Source: an uncultured Alphaproteobacteria bacterium
GTDB lineage: Bacteria; Pseudomonadota; Alphaproteobacteria; Rhizobiales; Afifellaceae
Direction of reading: 5' to 3'
Length of the DNA: 64,000 nt
NCBI GenBank assembly: GCA_963778625.1
Contig: CAVZVB010000014.1
Span: 340,849 to 404,848, forward strand
Part shown: positions 47,641-53,729 of the stretch, piece by piece
Layout of the letters: every line of letters starts with the position of its first letter
Position numbering within the stretch: the stretch's first letter is position 1
The notes under the pieces: model-generated
The model's database searches: none
Seen by the model: the letters and a program-made list of their open reading frames with translations, nothing else
What the model was told of the DNA's origin: nothing
Program-made: the position numbers and the translations under genes

Positions 47641-47771
47641 GAGACGGAAAAGGCGCCGCTCCAACCCTATATTCATCACGGGCGTCCTCGCCGGACTTCC
47701 AAGCCTCGCGCCCGCCGCCCCGTTGCCCTATTGTTCTCCGAAGCTTTCGAATCGTGCGCCATCGAAACGAG

Positions 47772-50145
47772 ATGACGGAAATCGCTCACCGCGAAGACCC
47801 GGCCGACCTCCCCGTGCCCCGCGCCCGGGCGGCATCGCGGCGCGCGCGCTCGCCGGCAGCGCCAAGCCGTGGCTCGAAAAGCTCAACCCGGAGCAGCTCA
47901 AGGCGGTCGAGCATACCGACGGGCCGCTCCTCGTTCTTGCCGGTGCAGGCACCGGTAAGACGCGCGTCCTGACGGCGCGGATCGCGCACATCCTCGCGAC
48001 CGGCCGCGCCTTCCCCTCGCAAATCCTCGCCGTCACCTTCACCAACAAGGCGGCGCGCGAGATGAAGAGCCGCGTCGCCGGCCTGATCGGCGAAGGCCGC
48101 GCCGAGGGCATGCCGTGGCTCGGCACCTTCCATTCGATCGGCGTGAAGATCCTGCGCCGGCACGCCGAAATGGTGGGCCTCAGAACCGATTTCACCATCC
48201 TCGACACCGACGACCAGATCAGGCTCTTGAAGCAGATCATCACCGCCAACAACATCGACGAGAAGCGCTGGCCGGCGCGCCAGCTCGCCGGGGCCATCGA
48301 CGGCTGGAAGAATCGCGGGCTGACGCCCGACAAGATTCCCGACGGCGAGGCCTACGCTTATGCGAACGGCAAGGGCCGCGAGCTCTACGCGGAATATCAG
48401 CAGCGGCTGAAGACGCTGAACGCCGCCGATTTCGGCGACCTGCTGCTCGAATGCCTGAGACTCTTCCGCGGGCAGCCGGACGTGCTCGCCGATTTCCAGA
48501 AGCGCTTCCGCTACATGCTGGTCGACGAATACCAGGACACCAACGTCGCGCAGTATCTGTGGCTGCGGCTCCTCGCGCAGGGCAACCCGAAGCCGAACAT
48601 CTGCTGCGTCGGCGACGACGACCAATCGATCTACGGCTGGCGCGGTGCGGAGGTCGACAACATCCTGCGCTTCGAGCGCGACTTCCCCGGCGCGACGGTG
48701 ATCCGGCTTGAGCGGAACTACCGCTCGACCGGCCATATCCTCGCCGCCGCCTCCGGCCTTATCGCGCATAACGAAGGCCGGCTCGGGAAGACGCTCTTCA
48801 CCGATACGGCCGAGATGGGCGCGCGGGTCGCCGTCACCTCCGGCTGGGATTCTTCGGAGGAGGCGCGCGCCGTCGGCGAGGACATCGAGCAGCTGCAGCG
48901 GCAGGGCGTCTCGCTCAACGACATGGCGATCCTGGTGCGCGCCTCCTACCAGATGCGCGAGTTCGAAGACCGCTTCATCACGCTCGGGCTCAACTATCGC
49001 GTCATCGGCGGCCCGCGCTTCTACGAGCGCATGGAGATTCGCGACGCGCTCGCCTATCTCCGCGCGACCGTGAACCCGGCCGACGACCTCGCCTTCGAGC
49101 GCATCGTCAACACGCCGAAGCGAGGCTTGGGCGCCTCCACTATCCAGCTCATCCATTCGCACGCGCGCGCCCGCAATGTCCCGCTGATGGCGGCGGCGGG
49201 CGAGCTGGTGCTGACGGAGGAGATCAAAGCGAAGCAGCGGCAGGCGCTCTCCGATCTCCTGAAGAGCTTTTCGCGCTGGTCGAGCCTCGTCGAAACGACG
49301 CGCCACATCGATCTCGCCGAGATGATCCTAGAGGAGTCAGGCTACACGGAGATGTGGCAGATGGACCGCTCGGCGGAGGCGCCGGGGCGGCTGGAGAACC
49401 TCAAAGAGCTCGTCAACAACATGGGAGAATACGATTCCCTCCCCGCGTTCCTGGAGCATGTCGCGCTGGTGATGGACGCGGAGCGCGGCGAGAACGACGA
49501 GGCCGTCTCCATCATGACGCTGCATTCGGCCAAGGGGCTGGAGTTCGACATTGTCTACCTCCCCGGCTGGGAGGAAGGCCTTTTCCCCTCGCAGCGCACG
49601 ATCGACGAGAGCGGCAAGGCCGGGTTGGAAGAGGAGCGCCGGCTCGCTTATGTCGGGCTGACGCGGGCGCGTAAGCAGGCGAAGATCTGGTTCGTCTCCA
49701 ACCGCCGCACGCACGGGCTCTGGCAATCGACGGTGCCGTCGCGCTTCCTCGACGACCTGCCGGAGGCGCATGTCGAGGTGTCGGAGCCGGCAAGCTACGG
49801 CGGCTACGGTGCGGGGGGGATGGGGGGCTACGGCACCTCGCGCTTCGACAACATGGAGCCGTTCAACTCCGCCTACCGCACGCCCGGCTGGCAGCGGGCG
49901 CAGACCAACCGCGGCAAAGTCCGATCCGCGCAAGCGCGTGGAGCGCGAGCCGGTGACGATCGAAGGCGAGCTTGTGGCGCGTAGCGTCATCGGCGGCAAT
50001 CGCGCGCTTCTCGACCGGCGACCGCGTGTTCCACCAAAAATTCGGGCCGGGCACCGTCGCCGCCGTCGATGGCAACAAGCTCACGGTCGATTTCGACAAG
50101 GCCGGGCAGAAGCGGGTGGTGGATAGCTTTGTCGAGGCGGCTTGA
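47772..50145 (+). CDS. uvrD: ATP-dependent DNA helicase UvrD/Rep family (frameshifts at N- and C-termini)
   Basis: LVLAGAGTGKTRVLTARIAHIL, FTNKAAREMKSR, MLVDEYQDTN, TLHSAKGLEFDIVYLPG and VGLTRARK in ORF 47723..49984. N-terminus MTEIAHRE and C-terminus VFHQKFGPGTVAAVDGNKLTVDFDKAGQKRVVDSFVEAA lie in other frames. Confidence 0.85.
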
Positions 50146-50196
50146 AGCGACTTCGTCCGGTTTGAAACGACCACGTTTCAGGACTAGATTTGCGAC

Positions 50197-50415
50197 ATGG
50201 CAAAGCTGAGCAAGAGGCTTGAAGATGAACTCTTCCGGGAAAATCCCGAGATGAGGGAGAAGGGCTTGCGCCCCGAAATTGTCTGGGTACCCGATACCGA
50301 GGCGCCCGGATTTCGAGAAGGGCTGAACAGACAGCTCGCGGCCATCCGAAACAGCCCTGGCGAAAAGGAACTCCTGGACTGGATGGAAAAGGTCGCCGAT
50401 TGGCCGACCGATTGA
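50197..50415 (+). CDS. DUF3018-family antitoxin (MazE-like)
   Basis: MAKLSKRLEDELFRENPEMREKGLRPEIVWVPDTEAPGFREGLNRQLAAIRNSPGEKELLDWMEKVADWPTD. It overlaps the downstream toxin gene. Confidence 0.7.
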   Translation: MAKLSKRLEDELFRENPEMREKGLRPEIVWVPDTEAPGFREGLNRQLAAIRNSPGEKELLDWMEKVADWPTD

Positions 50416-50753
50416 AGCGCGGTGACGTTCTGATCGTCTCGGCGCCGGGCGAGTATGGAAAGCCCCGACCTTCGGTGGTCGTGCAGGCGAATTTTCAGGA
50501 ACCCATCGAAAGCGTCGTCATCTGTCTGATGACAACCGATCTTATTGAGCCCGGCCCGGTCAGGCCGAACGTTCTGCCATCACACGAGAATGGCCTCCGG
50601 GCTGAATTGCAGGTCATGGTCGACAAGGTGATGGCGGTCCATCTCAGTCGGTGCGGCTCGAAGGTCGGCACCTTGTCGCCGTCGGACATGCAAGCCGTCG
50701 ATCAGGCGCTTGGCATCGTCCTGGGGCTCACCGTTCGGTCTCGCATCAATTGA
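50400..50753 (+). CDS. type II toxin PemK/MazF family endoribonuclease
   Basis: LKRGDVLIVSAPGEYGKPRPSVVVQANFQE...SVVICLMTTDL...LSPSDMQAVDQALGIVLGL. Start is TTG/GTG-type. Confidence 0.8.
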   Translation: MADRLKRGDVLIVSAPGEYGKPRPSVVVQANFQEPIESVVICLMTTDLIEPGPVRPNVLPSHENGLRAELQVMVDKVMAVHLSRCGSKVGTLSPSDMQAVDQALGIVLGLTVRSRIN

Positions 50754-50754
50754 G

Positions 50755-50872
50755 GGGACCTCGTGCCCGGCGGTGCGCGCGCCCGTCTCGTAGGCGCTCG
50801 CCAAGGCGCGGCAGAACCGCTCCGGGCTCCGGTCCGGATGCCCCTGGATTATAACGATATGCTTCGCCATGC
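50755..50872 (-). pseudogene. 5' remnant (~38 codons) of flavodoxin-like NAD(P)H-dependent oxidoreductase gene, truncated at the mazF stop
   Basis: Reverse translation gives MAKHIVIIQGHPDRSPERFCRALASAYETGARTAGHEV, a typical Flavodoxin_2/NAD(P)H-quinone-oxidoreductase N-terminus. The reading frame then runs into the antisense of mazF. Confidence 0.5.
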
Positions 50873-50898
50873 CGTCCCCTCGACAATCGGGCCGTTGT

Positions 50899-51825
50899 AT
50901 GAGGGTTCGCCGGCCGGCTCGAATTGATGTGTCGCGAGGAACGGAGGCTCCGCGATTGACCCTCAGGGCAACCTTCACCGCCGCCTTTCCGGAGGCGCGG
51001 CGCATCTCGAATTTTCTGGAGCGCGACTATTGCGATGCGGGCGTCGTCGTGTCGCTCGACGAGCGGAGCGACGGGCAATGGTCGGTCGACGCCTATTTCG
51101 AGGACGGCGGCGCGGAAGAGATTACGGAGAGGCTGCGCGATTGGCTTGGCGCCGATGCCTTTGGCGTGCCGTTCAACGTCGAGGCGCTGCCGGAGACGGA
51201 CTGGGTGAGCGCCGGGCTCAAGGTTTTGAAACCGATCGCGGCCGGCCGCTTCCTCCTGCACGGCAGCCATGACCGCTGGCACGTTCCGGCCAGCGCCATG
51301 CGGATCGAGATCGACGCCGGACGGGCGTTCGGCACCGGCCACCATCCGACGACGACCGGGATTCTTCGCGTTCTCGATCGGCTGACGCGCCGGCGCCGCT
51401 TTCTGCGCCCGCTCGATCTCGGGACCGGCTCCGGCGTGCTTGCGATCGCGATGGCGAAGGTGCTCCGGCGTCCGGTCGTTGCGACCGATATCGATCCGGT
51501 CGCAATCGCGGTCGCGCTGGAGAATGCACGACGAAACGGCGTTGCCGGGCTATTGCGCCTCGCAGTCGCGCCCGGCGTCGAGGCGCGCCTCATCCGCGAC
51601 CACGCGCCCTTCGATCTCGTCGCCGCCAACATTCTCGCCGAGCCGCTCTGCCAGTTGGCGCCGCGGCTTGCGCCCTTCATTGCGAAGGGCGGGACGCTGG
51701 TGCTTTCCGGGCTCCTGTTGCATCAGCGCGAGCGCGTCGCCGCCGCCTATCGAGCGCAAGGATTGCGGCTGACGAAAGCACATATCTTTGGCGGCTGGTC
51801 GGTGCTGGCGTTCAACAAGCCCTGA
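50899..51825 (+). CDS. prmA: ribosomal protein L11 methyltransferase
   Basis: TLRATFTAAFPEARRISNFLERDYCDAGVVVSLDERSDGQWSVDAYFEDGG ... LDLGTGSGVLAIAMAKV...ATDIDPVAIAVA. Start codon is uncertain (ATG 50899, GTG 50929 or TTG 50956). Confidence 0.8.
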   Translation: MRVRRPARIDVSRGTEAPRLTLRATFTAAFPEARRISNFLERDYCDAGVVVSLDERSDGQWSVDAYFEDGGAEEITERLRDWLGADAFGVPFNVEALPETDWVSAGLKVLKPIAAGRFLLHGSHDRWHVPASAMRIEIDAGRAFGTGHHPTTTGILRVLDRLTRRRRFLRPLDLGTGSGVLAIAMAKVLRRPVVATDIDPVAIAVALENARRNGVAGLLRLAVAPGVEARLIRDHAPFDLVAANILAEPLCQLAPRLAPFIAKGGTLVLSGLLLHQRERVAAAYRAQGLRLTKAHIFGGWSVLAFNKP

Positions 51826-51876: not shown

Positions 51877-53729
51877 ATGTTCCAGAGCTATATCGACAGC
51901 GCCGATCCGACCAAGGGCGCCGAGCGCGCGAAAGCGCTCCGCGCCAAGCTGAAAGAAATGCAGCTCGACGGCTTCATCGTGCCGCGCGCCGACGAGCACC
52001 AGGGCGAGTATGTGCCGAAGGCGTCGGAGCGCCTGGCCTGGCTCACCGGCTTCACCGGCTCGGCCGGAACCGCGGTCGTGCTCGCGGACAGGGCAGCGAT
52101 CTTCGTCGACGGGCGCTATACGCTGCAGGTGCCCGAGCAGGTCGACACGGAAGTCTTCACGCCGGTCGCGGTGATGGAGACGTCGGTCGCCGAGTGGCTG
52201 AAGACGACCGTCGCGACGGGACAGCGCATCGGCTTCGACCCCTGGCTGATGACCCGCACGCAGGTGCGCCAGATCAGGAAGGGCTTGGAGGCTGCCGGCG
52301 CGGAGCTCGTCGCCGTCGAGGAGAACCCGATCGACGCGGTGTGGGACAACAGGCCCGGACCGCCACTTGCCGCAGTCTTCGAGCAGCCCGAAGCGCTCGC
52401 CGGCAAGCCGGTCGAAGAGAAGATCGCCGAGGCGAGCAAGATCGTCGCTGAGAAGGACGCCGACGCCGCAATCTTGACGGACCCGGCATCGATCGCCTGG
52501 CTCTTCAACATCCGCGGCAACGACATTGCGCATACGCCCTCGCCGCTCGCCTTCGCCGCAATCCACGCCGACGGCCGGCCGGAGCTCTTCATCGACGGGC
52601 GCAAGCTGTCGAACGCCATGCGTGACCGGCTGGAGGGCTTCGCCGACGTACGTGAAGCCCGCGATTTCTCCGCGCGACTGACGGCTCTTGGGGGCGAGAA
52701 CCGGAAGGTGCTCGTCGACCCTCAGGGATCGGCGGAGGCCGTCGCGCGGCTCGTCGAAGATGGTGGTGGCACGATCGTTGAGTCTGCCGATCCGGTGGCG
52801 CTGCCGAAGGCGAAGAAGAATCAGGCGGAGCTTCAAGGCGCGCGCGCGGCGCATGTCCGCGACGGCGTCGCCATGGCGCGCTTCCTTCGCTTCGTCGAGA
52901 CGAGCGCGCCAGGGTCGCTTACCGAAATCGATGCGGCGAAGGCGCTCGAAACCTTTCGCGCCGAGACTGCCGCGGAAGTCCGGCACGCCGCTCGCCGATC
53001 TCGCTTTCGATGCGATCTCGTCGACCGGCCCGAACGGCGCCATCAACCACTATCGCGTCACCGAGCGAACCAACCGCCGGCTCGAAGAGGGCGATCTCTA
53101 TCTGATCGATTCCGGCGGCCAATATCAGGACGGCACCACAGACGTCACGCGAACCGTGCCGATCGGCCAGCCTTCGCGCGCGAGGCTCGACCTTTTCCGC
53201 GACCGTTTCACCCGCGTGCTTCGCGGCCACATCGCGATCGCGATCGCGCGCTTCCCGAAGGGGACGACCGGAGCGCAACTCGATCCGTTCGCGCGCCACG
53301 CGCTCTGGCAGGCCGGCCTCGACTTCGACCACGGCACCGGCCACGGCGTCGGCTCCTATCTTTCCGTGCACGAGGGGCCGCAGCGGATCGCCAAGGCCGG
53401 CCACGCGCCGCTTGAGCCGGGCATGATCATCTCCAACGAGCCCGGTTACTACCGCGCCGGCGATTTCGGCATCCGCATCGAGAACCTCGTCGTCGTGCGC
53501 GAGGCGGAGCCGGTGCCGGGCGGCGACCGGCCGATGCACTCCTTCGAGACGATCACGCTCAGCCCCATCGACCGAAGGCTGATCGATCCGCTCCTGATGA
53601 TCGCCGGCGGAGATTGCCTGGCTCGACGCGTATCATGCGCGCGTCTTCGGCGCGCTCTCAGGCTGGCCGACGCTCTCAAGCGAAGACCGCGCCTGGCTTG
53701 AAGCGGCGTGCCGGCCGATCGTCGGCTAG
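51877..53729 (+). CDS. pepP: aminopeptidase P family protein (M24) (two frameshifts)
   Basis: Creatinase_N-like N-terminus (ORF 51877..53415), M24 core GTPLADLAFDAISSTGPNGAINHYRV...DSGGQYQDGTTDVTRT...HGTGHGVGSYLSVHEGP...ISNEPGYY (ORF 52688..53701), and C-terminus ...WLEAACRPIVG* in a third frame. Confidence 0.85.

What the first reader, a model, noticed from the sequence alone, without database searches (positions are those of the whole stretch)
50150..50872. DUF3018(MazE-like)/PemK-MazF toxin-antitoxin module appears to have replaced most of a flavodoxin-like NAD(P)H oxidoreductase gene
Only the first ~38 codons (MAKHIVIIQGHPDRSPERFCRALASAYETGARTAGHEV) of a Flavodoxin_2-type gene remain on the minus strand, and they end precisely at the mazF stop codon. 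On the other side the TA pair starts only ~50 bp after the uvrD stop. This is a small clean insertion or deletion footprint for a mobile TA cassette.
Basis: partly seen in the sequence, partly recalled or inferred. Interest (0 to 1): 0.55.

Follow-up and report, generated by a model that had tools for sequence, protein, structure and literature searches.

The report
Toxin-antitoxin pair beside a truncated gene
A common toxin-antitoxin gene pair (MazE-like/MazF) sits between uvrD and prmA next to the 38-codon stump of a flavodoxin-like gene that is intact in related bacteria; this is ordinary gene loss at a variable spot, not a new kind of element.

Summary
A MazE-like (PF11455, former DUF3018) / PemK-MazF (PF02452) pair lies at 50197-50753, 51 nt after the uvrD stop. 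On the minus strand, 38 codons (50870-50757) of a Flavodoxin_2 gene end 3 nt from the mazF stop.

Relatives carry a full 197-aa gene at exactly this place, so the stump is a pseudogene lacking about 479 bp.

The reading that a mobile TA cassette replaced the gene is only partly supported.
- The closest relative here (L002) has the intact gene and no TA.
- Two other relatives (L005, L006) have a TA pair plus the intact gene.
- L063, with the same TA lineage, has the mazF stop, GG, then the 3' end of the flavodoxin-like gene.
- Seven other loci of this lineage have mazF directly before prmA.
- All TA pairs at this locus form one clade (167/200 bootstraps).
- No repeats or mobility genes flank the pair.

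Best explanation: the TA pair is an old resident between uvrD and prmA, and a later deletion removed the 3' four-fifths of the neighbouring gene. A one-step replacement cannot be excluded.

The TA family is well known. Interest is low.

The parts
47723..50145 (+). uvrD helicase gene, left flank of the variable spot. Its last ~230 nt need two frame changes (extra bases near 49920 and 50000) to read the conserved C-terminal tudor domain.
   Evidence: Pfam UvrD-helicase, UvrD_C and PcrA_UvrD_tudor. Alignment with L005 shows two 1-nt insertions in the window.
50162..50190 (+). Predicted sigma-70-type promoter of the TA operon: TTGAAA, 17 nt, TAGATT. The mazE ATG lies 7 nt after the -10 box, which implies a leaderless or nearly leaderless mRNA (inferred).
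   Evidence: It is the only promoter-like site in 50050-51050 (1 found against 0.2 expected). Both hexamers and the distance to the ATG are conserved in L063 and L072.
50163..50180 (.). Perfect inverted repeat TGAAACG-ACCA-CGTTTCA overlapping the -35 box and spacer. Candidate operator for autorepression by the antitoxin or the TA complex (inferred).
   Evidence: It is not conserved as a perfect palindrome in L063 or L072.
50197..50415 (+). mazE-like antitoxin gene, 72 aa.
   Evidence: PF11455 MazE-like, 54.2 bits. 72-75% identical 72-aa orthologues lie after uvrD in L063 and L072.
50400..50753 (+). PemK/MazF-family toxin gene, 117 aa from TTG 50400. The more likely start is TTG 50412 (113 aa), which overlaps the mazE stop as TTGA.
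   Evidence: PF02452, 61.5 bits, full length. The C-terminus has native length compared with the closest homologues. 107 of 120 homologues start at the position of 50412. Closest solved structure is M. tuberculosis MazF7, 5wyg, E 1.2e-8.
50754..50756 (.). Junction: 2 nt (GG) that also precede the flavodoxin-like stop codon in L063 and L002, plus 1 nt left from codon 39. About 479 bp present in relatives are missing here.
   Evidence: Alignments.
50757..50870 (-). 5' stump (codons 1-38) of a Flavodoxin_2 / NAD(P)H-dependent FMN reductase-type gene; a pseudogene.
   Evidence: 97% aa and 93.9% nt identity to L002, with 6 synonymous and 1 non-synonymous codon differences. Full-length relatives score 115-128 bits on PF02525.
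50580..50756 (-). Continuation of the open frame antisense through mazF, completing a 96-codon ORF that one annotation calls as a protein. It is not conserved as flavodoxin sequence and is not a gene.
50871..50955 (.). Divergent spacer between the flavodoxin-like stump and prmA. It should still hold the stump's promoter, although no sigma-70 consensus was found there.
   Evidence: 84% identical to L002. No promoter-like or terminator-like site.
50956..51825 (+). prmA (ribosomal protein L11 methyltransferase), right flank. The start is probably TTG 50956 (MTLRATF...).
   Evidence: Pfam PrmA 187 bits; NCBIfam NF001784 281 bits against a cut-off of 244. Start inferred by alignment with relatives.

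Best explanation
The region holds a chromosomal type II toxin-antitoxin operon. A MazE-like antitoxin (PF11455) is followed by a PemK/MazF endoribonuclease toxin, with overlapping stop and start codons.

It is probably transcribed from a promoter 7 nt upstream of the antitoxin ATG. That promoter overlaps an inverted repeat that could serve as the autorepression operator.

By analogy with characterised MazEF systems, the antitoxin would bind and neutralise the toxin, and free toxin would cleave RNA and arrest growth. This mechanism is inferred from family membership and is not shown here.

The pair is an old resident of the uvrD-prmA spacer in this group of Alphaproteobacteria. In the ancestral arrangement, mazF converged on a 197-aa Flavodoxin_2 oxidoreductase gene, with only a few nucleotides between the two stop codons.

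In this genome a deletion of about 479 bp removed that gene from its stop codon back to codon 39. It left the TA pair intact, together with a 38-codon stump and its upstream region. The stump is a recent pseudogene, not a small gene.

The confidence given (0.62) is for the full two-step history. That the locus is a MazE-like/MazF pair beside a truncated remnant of a once full-length gene is close to certain (about 0.95).
For: TA identity:
- Pfam hits for both genes are well above the curated cut-offs.
- The toxin has native length.
- The Arg (GKPRP, 120/120) and Thr (114/120) that align with the RNA-binding/catalytic Arg25 and Thr48 of B. subtilis MazF are present (role of these residues from PMC8634880).
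- 321 plasmid records carry homologues of up to 47% identity; in the 12 best hits listed, the adjacent gene is annotated as a MazE-like, MazE-family or DUF3018 protein in 11.

Ancestral arrangement:
- L005 has uvrD-mazE-mazF-flav(197 aa)-prmA, and L006 has epimerase-mazE-mazF-flav(201 aa)-prmA.
- L063, from the window's own TA lineage (MazF 68-71% identical), has mazF TGA, GG, TCA (the flavodoxin-like stop) and 26 C-terminal codons.
- The same GG precedes the flavodoxin-like stop in the TA-less L002 and follows the mazF stop in the window.

Residency of the TA pair:
- All 9 MazF sequences from this locus cluster together against 11 homologues not shown to lie at this locus (167/200 bootstraps), and the window's lineage has 200/200 support.
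- Promoter geometry is conserved in L063 and L072.

Recent loss of the gene:
- The stump differs from L002 by 6 synonymous and 1 non-synonymous codon.

No mobility signature:
- No flanking direct or inverted repeats beyond chance.
- No Rfam element.
- The neighbours are housekeeping genes.
Against: - No locus with the window's own TA lineage and a complete flavodoxin-like gene was found. Seven loci of that lineage have mazF directly before prmA (L062, L064, L065, L066, L072, L073, L074), and L063 has only a 3' remnant.
- The nearest relative in the adjacent segment, L002, has no TA pair. The TA pair was therefore either gained in the window's line or lost in L002's line since their split.
- A deletion endpoint falling exactly at the neighbouring gene's stop codon, 2 nt from the mazF stop, is a coincidence under a random-deletion model.
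- The toxin carries Leu at a position that is Ser in 117 of 120 homologues, so its activity is not assured.
- Toxicity, neutralisation, the transcription start and operator binding are all untested.
Confidence: 0.62

Rival explanations
1. One-step replacement, essentially the first reader's idea. An L002-like ancestor (uvrD-flav-prmA, no TA) took up DNA carrying uvrD-3' and mazEF from a related lineage. One end recombined by homology in uvrD. The other end joined illegitimately inside the flavodoxin-like gene at codon 39, deleting the recipient's spacer and codons 39-197 in the same event (homology-facilitated illegitimate recombination; the mechanism is cited from general knowledge).
For: - L002, the closest relative in flav-5'/prmA-5' (92% against about 75% background) and in pepP (91%), has no TA pair and an intact gene.
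- The special window-L002 similarity is not seen in the last ~900 nt of uvrD (86.6% and 89.6%, no higher than to other relatives). A change of ancestry somewhere between uvrD-3' and the junction is therefore possible.
- The region is demonstrably mosaic: prmA-3' is L001-like at 90%.
- GC content of the TA pair is 56-61% against 65-70% in the flanks.
Against: - In uvrD part 3 (49250-49750), L002 is the outlier to all genomes, so the ancestry change may lie in L002's line rather than the window's.
- The GG after the mazF stop is the same GG that precedes the flavodoxin-like stop in L063 and L002. This is expected if an intact convergent gene once followed mazF.
- A donor carrying the flavodoxin-like gene would more likely recombine by homology and leave the gene intact.
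- The last uvrD codon (GCT) is shared only with L002 (one site, weak evidence).
- There is no microhomology longer than 1 nt at the joint.
Confidence: 0.25
2. Assembly or sequencing artefact: the gene is intact in the organism and about 480 bp were dropped by the assembler.
For: The window carries frame errors typical of long-read assemblies in uvrD and pepP. The related metagenome-assembled genomes also show frameshifts. The truncated state is seen in only one assembly.
Against: Indel noise is 1-nt scale, not 479 bp. The junction has no repeat that could cause a collapse. Independent relatives show other deletion states of the same gene (L063, L072, L073), so loss of this gene is biologically recurrent.
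Confidence: 0.04
3. The short minus-strand ORF (38 or 96 codons) is a genuine small gene, not a remnant.
For: The ORF is open for 96 codons and was called as a protein in one annotation.
Against: No relative has the same short form. Beyond codon 38 the frame is simply antisense mazF with no flavodoxin homology. Only profile positions 1-55 of 198 are covered, so the FMN-binding fold cannot form.
Confidence: 0.02

Closest known systems
MazEF7 of Mycobacterium tuberculosis (MazF7, PDB 5wyg / 6a6x / 7du4)
   Same: It is the closest solved toxin by sequence (E 1.2e-8, aligned over residues 2-107). It has the PemK/MazF fold family, a small antitoxin gene upstream, and a chromosomal location.
   Different: The similarity is only distant. 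The window's antitoxin gave no meaningful match to any solved chain. The Ser of MazF7's 'DSV' motif is Leu in the window's toxin.
Plasmid-borne DUF3018 (MazE-like) / PemK-MazF pairs, e.g. TA5 of Pseudomonas syringae pPsv48B (PMC6354349) and 321 PLSDB plasmids
   Same: Same two Pfam families in the same order. RefSeq annotates them as a type II PemK/MazF family toxin with a MazE-like or DUF3018 antitoxin (PMC6354349).
   Different: At most 47% identity. The window's pair is chromosomal and fixed between uvrD and prmA across a range of relatives (PrmA down to 60% identity), rather than on a plasmid.
Bacillus subtilis MazF (EndoA) / E. coli MazEF, the textbook type II endoribonuclease TA systems
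   Same: Same toxin superfamily. Residues aligning with the RNA-binding Arg25 and Thr48 of MazF-Bs are present (PMC8634880). The operon has the antitoxin first with overlapping genes.
   Different: The antitoxin belongs to a different family (PF11455; no other Pfam antitoxin family was matched). Cleavage specificity is unknown.
TA modules as guards against deletion of neighbouring DNA (P. syringae virulence plasmids, PMC6354349)
   Same: Rearrangements at this locus stop at or near the edge of the TA pair and never enter it: 3 nt from the mazF stop in the window, about 80 nt in L063, and 0-48 nt in L062, L064, L065, L072, L073 and L074.
   Different: Here the pattern is only comparative, with no experiment. 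The TA pair did not protect the neighbouring gene.

Membership tests
Type II TA, PemK/MazF toxin (PF02452) | Toxin matches the family profile above the curated cut-off over its full length | tested here: met
   61.5 bits against 23.1, profile positions 1-109 of 109. 137 database homologues at E <= 1e-5; all 120 listed carry PF02452.
Type II TA, PemK/MazF toxin (PF02452) | Small antitoxin gene immediately upstream in the same operon, with coupled or overlapping reading frames | tested here: met
   mazE-like 50197-50415. The toxin start TTG 50412 overlaps the stop as TTGA, or TTG 50400 gives a 16-nt overlap. PF11455, 54.2 bits against 22.
Type II TA, PemK/MazF toxin (PF02452) | Catalytic/RNA-binding Arg and Thr (Arg25 and Thr48 of B. 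subtilis MazF) | tested here: met
   R23 in GKPRP (120/120 homologues) and T45 (114/120) are present in the window's protein. Role of these residues from PMC8634880. The equivalence rests on sequence alignment only.
Type II TA, PemK/MazF toxin (PF02452) | Other near-invariant positions of this subfamily are conserved | tested here: not met
   Position 70 is Leu where 117 of 120 homologues have Ser (one C-to-T change would do it). Position 31 is Asn where 112 of 120 have Asp. The functional consequence is unknown.
Type II TA, PemK/MazF toxin (PF02452) | Toxin inhibits growth by RNA cleavage and is neutralised by the cognate antitoxin | not testable with these tools
   Needs expression and cleavage assays.
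Type II TA, PemK/MazF toxin (PF02452) | Autoregulation through an operator at the promoter | tested here: inconclusive
   A perfect 7+7 inverted repeat overlaps the -35 box in the window. The promoter hexamers are conserved in L063 and L072, but the palindrome is not.
Flavodoxin_2 / NAD(P)H-dependent FMN reductase (PF02525, PF03358) | Complete flavodoxin-like domain (about 198 profile positions) | tested here: not met
   Only profile positions 1-55 are matched, 19.7 bits, below the cut-off of 27. Relatives at the same site score 115-128 bits over positions 1-196. The window's copy is a remnant.
Flavodoxin_2 / NAD(P)H-dependent FMN reductase (PF02525, PF03358) | Orthology by position and sequence to full-length family members | tested here: met
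   Same position and strand between uvrD (or the TA pair) and prmA. 73-97% aa identity over codons 1-38 with L001, L002, L004, L005, L006 and L071.
Discrete mobile cassette (IS, transposon, integron cassette or similar) | Terminal inverted repeats, target-site duplication or an attachment site at the borders | tested here: not met
   Only short matches of 9-22 nt in 49900-51100, which the tool warns are often chance; none brackets the TA pair.
Discrete mobile cassette (IS, transposon, integron cassette or similar) | Transposase, integrase or recombinase gene associated | tested here: not met
   The neighbours within about 3 kb are uvrD, prmA and pepP (Pfam/NCBIfam) plus an unscanned ORF upstream of uvrD that reads like a short-chain dehydrogenase. 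No Pfam scan was made of every ORF in the 64-kb window.
Discrete mobile cassette (IS, transposon, integron cassette or similar) | The same element found at different genomic sites | tested here: not met
   All 10 loci of the window's TA lineage lie after uvrD and/or before prmA. More distant homologues at 50-51% identity (L067-L070) show no uvrD, prmA or pepP match on their contigs.

The most novel reading that the evidence does not exclude
The repeated, independent erosion of the gene between mazF and prmA may not be neutral decay. Three states are seen: a 5' stump here, a 3' stump in L063, and nothing in seven other loci, including an ATGA overlap of the mazF stop with the prmA start in L062 and L064. 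This could reflect selection to place prmA (ribosomal protein L11 methyltransferase) directly downstream of the autoregulated mazEF promoter. Expression of a ribosome-modifying enzyme would then be coupled to the state of the toxin-antitoxin switch. The TA pair would also act as a barrier that fixes where deletions can end.
Probability: 0.08. Interest if true: 0.45.

Novelty: new member of a known kind. Interest (0 to 1): 0.18.

Why it matters
It matters little beyond annotation.
- The 96-aa ORF called in the source record should be marked as a pseudogene remnant, and the two small genes as a MazE-like/MazF pair.
- The comparative picture is a tidy small example of how a chromosomal TA pair can stay fixed at one intergenic spot for a long time while genes around it come and go. 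Closely related genomes differ in whether they carry it.
- If the link to prmA were real, it would be a new physiological output for a MazEF module, but the present evidence for that is only positional.

Tried and rejected
- I first took the tblastn extension of the stump to 43 residues (PSIDA against RTIDV) as evidence that the last mazF codons were built from antisense flavodoxin sequence. Alignment with the closest MazF homologues rejected this: tails such as ...PRIGN and ...PLINGR show that the window's ...SRIN tail and stop are native.
- I looked for a flavodoxin scar in the mazF-prmA spacers of L072 and L073. Only a 12-nt match was found, which I treat as chance.
- I looked for a scar in the 50-nt uvrD-prmA spacer of L003 by eye and saw none.
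- I used identity profiles along the region to decide between one-step and two-step models. The region is mosaic and L002 is itself an outlier in uvrD-3', so the test was not decisive.
- The PDB search with the antitoxin returned only pentatricopeptide-repeat designer proteins. These come from summed weak repeats, with each stretch at E about 100, and are spurious.
- NCBIfam has no model that hits the toxin, the antitoxin or the stump.
- Rfam found nothing in 49500-51500.
- No intrinsic terminator was predicted between mazF and prmA.
- A literature search for the role of the conserved Ser (Ser73 of B. subtilis MazF) found nothing usable.
- The exact 96-aa ORF could not be located in the gene-position index, so the source record was not identified.

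Full report
**What is in the sequence**

Reading 49,700-51,400 and listing ORFs gives this order:
- uvrD, with its stop at 50143-50145.
- A 51-nt spacer.
- A 72-codon ORF at 50197-50415.
- An overlapping 113-117-codon ORF from 50400 or 50412 to 50753.
- On the minus strand, an ATG at 50870 that opens a frame running back through the second ORF.
- An 85-nt spacer, then prmA from about 50956, then pepP.

Pfam assigns the first small ORF to PF11455 MazE-like (the former DUF3018; 54.2 bits) and the second to PF02452 PemK_toxin (61.5 bits, full profile). The minus-strand ORF matches only the first 55 of 198 positions of Flavodoxin_2, at a sub-threshold 19.7 bits. NCBIfam recognises only prmA.

The observation therefore stands, with the ATG 2 nt from the stated end.

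**Is the stump a remnant?**

A scan of one genome per species with PrmA returned six close relatives, L001-L006 (PrmA 70-88% identical). All are metagenome-assembled Alphaproteobacteria.

tblastn and ORF listings show a complete 197-201-aa gene on the minus strand, directly upstream of prmA, in L001, L002, L004, L005 and L006, and later in L071. These genes score 115-128 bits on Flavodoxin_2 and also hit FMN_red.

The window's 38 codons are 97% identical to L002's. The seven nucleotide differences comprise six synonymous codons and one replacement. The gene was therefore under purifying selection for most of the time since the two lines split.

No relative has the short form. The 96-aa ORF exists on one contig only. 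The window contains no second copy. The stump is a recent pseudogene lacking about 479 bp: codon 39, second base, through the stop codon.

**The junction**

Alignments place the break at ...ATC AAT TGA GG | G GAC CTC GTG....

The MazF tail (...TVRSRIN) has the same length and character as those of its closest homologues, such as ...LVEPRIGN and ...SSPLINGR. The toxin gene is therefore untouched.

In L063, which has the same TA lineage, the mazF stop is followed by GG. Then come TCA, the antisense stop of the flavodoxin-like gene, and 26 recognisable C-terminal codons of that gene. The TA-less L002 has the same GG-TCA-GCTCCCCGC at the end of its intact gene.

The two G's after the window's mazF stop are thus most simply the old spacer. 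The missing piece begins exactly at the neighbour's stop codon.

**What relatives show about history**

The uvrD-prmA interval is short and empty in L003 and in more distant Hyphomicrobiales. Within this group it takes many states:

| State | Loci |
|---|---|
| uvrD-flav-prmA | L001, L002, L071 |
| uvrD-unknown ORF-flav-prmA | L004 |
| uvrD-mazEF-flav-prmA | L005 |
| uvrD-epimerase-mazEF-flav-prmA | L006 |
| uvrD-mazEF-flav 3' stump-PD40-repeat gene | L063 |
| uvrD-mazEF-flav 5' stump-prmA | the window |
| uvrD-mazEF-prmA | L072 |
| mazEF-prmA; the contig ends within or just before mazEF, so the upstream gene is unseen | L073, L062, L064, L066, L074 |
| mazEF-prmA with a different gene (not uvrD) upstream of mazE | L065 |

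One further contig, which encodes the MazF homologue P0004 of this lineage, has uvrD-mazE-mazF and then ends.

A neighbour-joining tree of the toxins groups all nine from this locus against eleven homologues not shown to lie at this locus (167 of 200 bootstraps). The window's lineage has 200 of 200.

The TA pair is therefore a long-standing resident of this spot, not a newcomer from elsewhere. It is nevertheless polymorphic. L002 is the nearest relative in the adjacent segment (92% nt identity against about 75% background; pepP 91%), and it lacks the pair.

The region is also mosaic. The 3' half of prmA is closest to L001 (90% against 80% for L002), and the window-L002 affinity disappears in the last 900 nt of uvrD. 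Recombination between lineages is clearly shuffling this neighbourhood.

**Interpretation**

Two histories give the present sequence.

(a) The TA pair lay between the convergent uvrD and flavodoxin-like genes. This state is attested in L005 and L006, and for the window's own lineage in L063. A later deletion of about 479 bp then removed the flavodoxin-like 3' part.

(b) A TA-less, L002-like ancestor acquired uvrD-3' and mazEF by recombination anchored in uvrD. The other end joined illegitimately at codon 39, replacing the gene's 3' part in one step.

I favour (a), at about 0.6-0.65, for three reasons:
- The intermediate state exists.
- The GG spacer is retained.
- A donor that still had the flavodoxin-like gene would recombine by homology.

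History (b), at about 0.25, remains open for three reasons:
- No locus combines this TA lineage with a complete flavodoxin-like gene.
- The nearest relative is TA-less.
- Ancestry may change across the TA pair.

Nothing marks the pair as a discrete mobile cassette:
- No bracketing repeats.
- No recombinase among the neighbours.
- A single genomic site for the whole lineage.
- Only a lower GC content, 56-61% against 65-70%.

An assembly artefact is unlikely for a clean 479-bp gap, but it cannot be excluded without reads. The window does carry 1-nt frame errors in uvrD and pepP.

**How it most likely works**

Shown by the sequence:
- Gene order with the antitoxin first, and a stop/start overlap (TTGA at 50412-50415).
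- Both family assignments, and a full-length toxin.
- Presence of the Arg (GKPRP) and Thr that align with Arg25 and Thr48 of B. subtilis MazF (PMC8634880).
- A single promoter-like site, TTGAAA-17-TAGATT at 50162-50190, ending 7 nt before the ATG. Its hexamers and spacing are conserved in L063 and L072.
- A perfect 7+7 inverted repeat over the -35 box.

Inferred from knowledge of MazEF systems:
- A leaderless transcript.
- The antitoxin binds the toxin dimer and represses the promoter at the inverted repeat.
- Free toxin cleaves RNA at a short motif and arrests growth.

One caveat applies. The window's toxin has Leu where 117 of 120 homologues, and also M. tuberculosis MazF7 and B. subtilis MazF, have Ser. 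It also has Asn where 112 of 120 have Asp. The toxin may be weakened, or the Leu may be a base-call error.

There are two side effects of the deletion. mazF now ends 202 nt before prmA with no predicted terminator between them, so read-through into prmA is possible. Any transcription from the stump's promoter would run antisense into mazF. Neither was tested.

**Comparison with known systems, and novelty**

The pair belongs to the widespread MazE-like(DUF3018)/PemK-MazF type II family:
- 321 plasmid records carry homologues at up to 47% identity. In the 12 best hits listed, the adjacent gene is annotated as a MazE-like, MazE-family or DUF3018 protein in 11.
- A DUF3018/MazF-like pair is listed as TA5 on Pseudomonas syringae plasmid pPsv48B (PMC6354349).
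- The nearest solved toxin is M. tuberculosis MazF7.

This is a new member of a known kind next to an ordinary pseudogene.

The one mildly unusual aspect is positional. A TA lineage has been kept at one housekeeping intergenic site across relatives whose PrmA is only 60% identical. The gene between mazF and prmA has been lost several times, and in L062 and L064 the mazF stop overlaps the prmA start. That could hint at coupling of prmA to the TA promoter, or at the TA pair acting as a barrier to deletions (compare PMC6354349). Present evidence is only comparative, so I rate that reading as improbable.

**Verdict**

The feature is real but ordinary, and interest is about 0.18.

Noticed in passing
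window 49900-50145: The uvrD C-terminus needs two frame changes. Relative to L005 the window has an extra base near 49920 and another near 50000, so the conserved tudor domain (49972-50145) is out of frame with the helicase body. This is likely long-read indel error, but it could be a damaged uvrD.
   Followed up: partly
window 51877-53701: pepP (Xaa-Pro aminopeptidase) is split into two overlapping ORFs, 51877-53415 and 52688-53701. The conserved reading switches frame after about codon 367. Similar frame breaks occur in relatives (uvrD in L002; the flavodoxin-like gene in L001 and L071; prmA in L006), which suggests assembly noise in these long-read MAGs.
   Followed up: partly
window 50607-50609 (MazF codon 70): This codon is TTG (Leu) where 117 of 120 homologues have Ser. 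A single C-to-T change would do it. The same Ser is present in M. tuberculosis MazF7 and, from a by-eye alignment with its sequence recalled from memory, in B. subtilis MazF. This may be an attenuated toxin or a base-call error. Position 31 is Asn where 112 of 120 have Asp.
   Followed up: partly
L065 ~2815-2835 and L066 ~463-483: In two independent metagenome contigs, the mazE of the sister TA allele carries a 7-bp tandem duplication (GAGCTCC GAGCTCC) that shifts the frame after about 19 codons. The antitoxin N-terminus is separated from its conserved C-terminal part while mazF stays intact.
   Followed up: no
L062 421-430, L064 ~484-493: The mazF stop and the prmA start overlap as ATGA, so mazE-mazF-prmA looks like one translationally coupled operon in that clade. 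In L065, L066 and L074 the gap is 9-15 nt.
   Followed up: partly
window 50757-51825 compared with L001 and L002: prmA has mosaic ancestry. The flav-5'/prmA-5' segment (50757-51150) is 92% identical to L002 and 74% to L001. The prmA 3' part (51250-51825) is 90% identical to L001 and 80% to L002. There is a recombination breakpoint near 51150-51250.
   Followed up: partly
L004 4190-5310; L006 3690-4673; L018, L026, L027 between uvrD and prmA: The uvrD-prmA interval is a general variable spot. L004 holds a roughly 350-aa ORF with no Pfam match, L006 an NAD-dependent epimerase, and more distant relatives hold 1.2-4.3 kb of other DNA.
   Followed up: partly
L063 843-1400: Downstream of the 3' stump of the flavodoxin-like gene, the contig continues not with prmA but with a PD40 / beta-propeller repeat gene. 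This points to a larger rearrangement in that lineage, or a chimeric short contig.
   Followed up: no
L005 5292-5316; L006 5302-5308: Short GC-rich hairpins (CCGAGA-GCGCGA-TCTCGG in L005; GGCGGT-CTC-ACCGCC in L006) sit between or across the convergent mazF and flavodoxin-like stop codons. They may be bidirectional terminators. No equivalent remains in the window.
   Followed up: no
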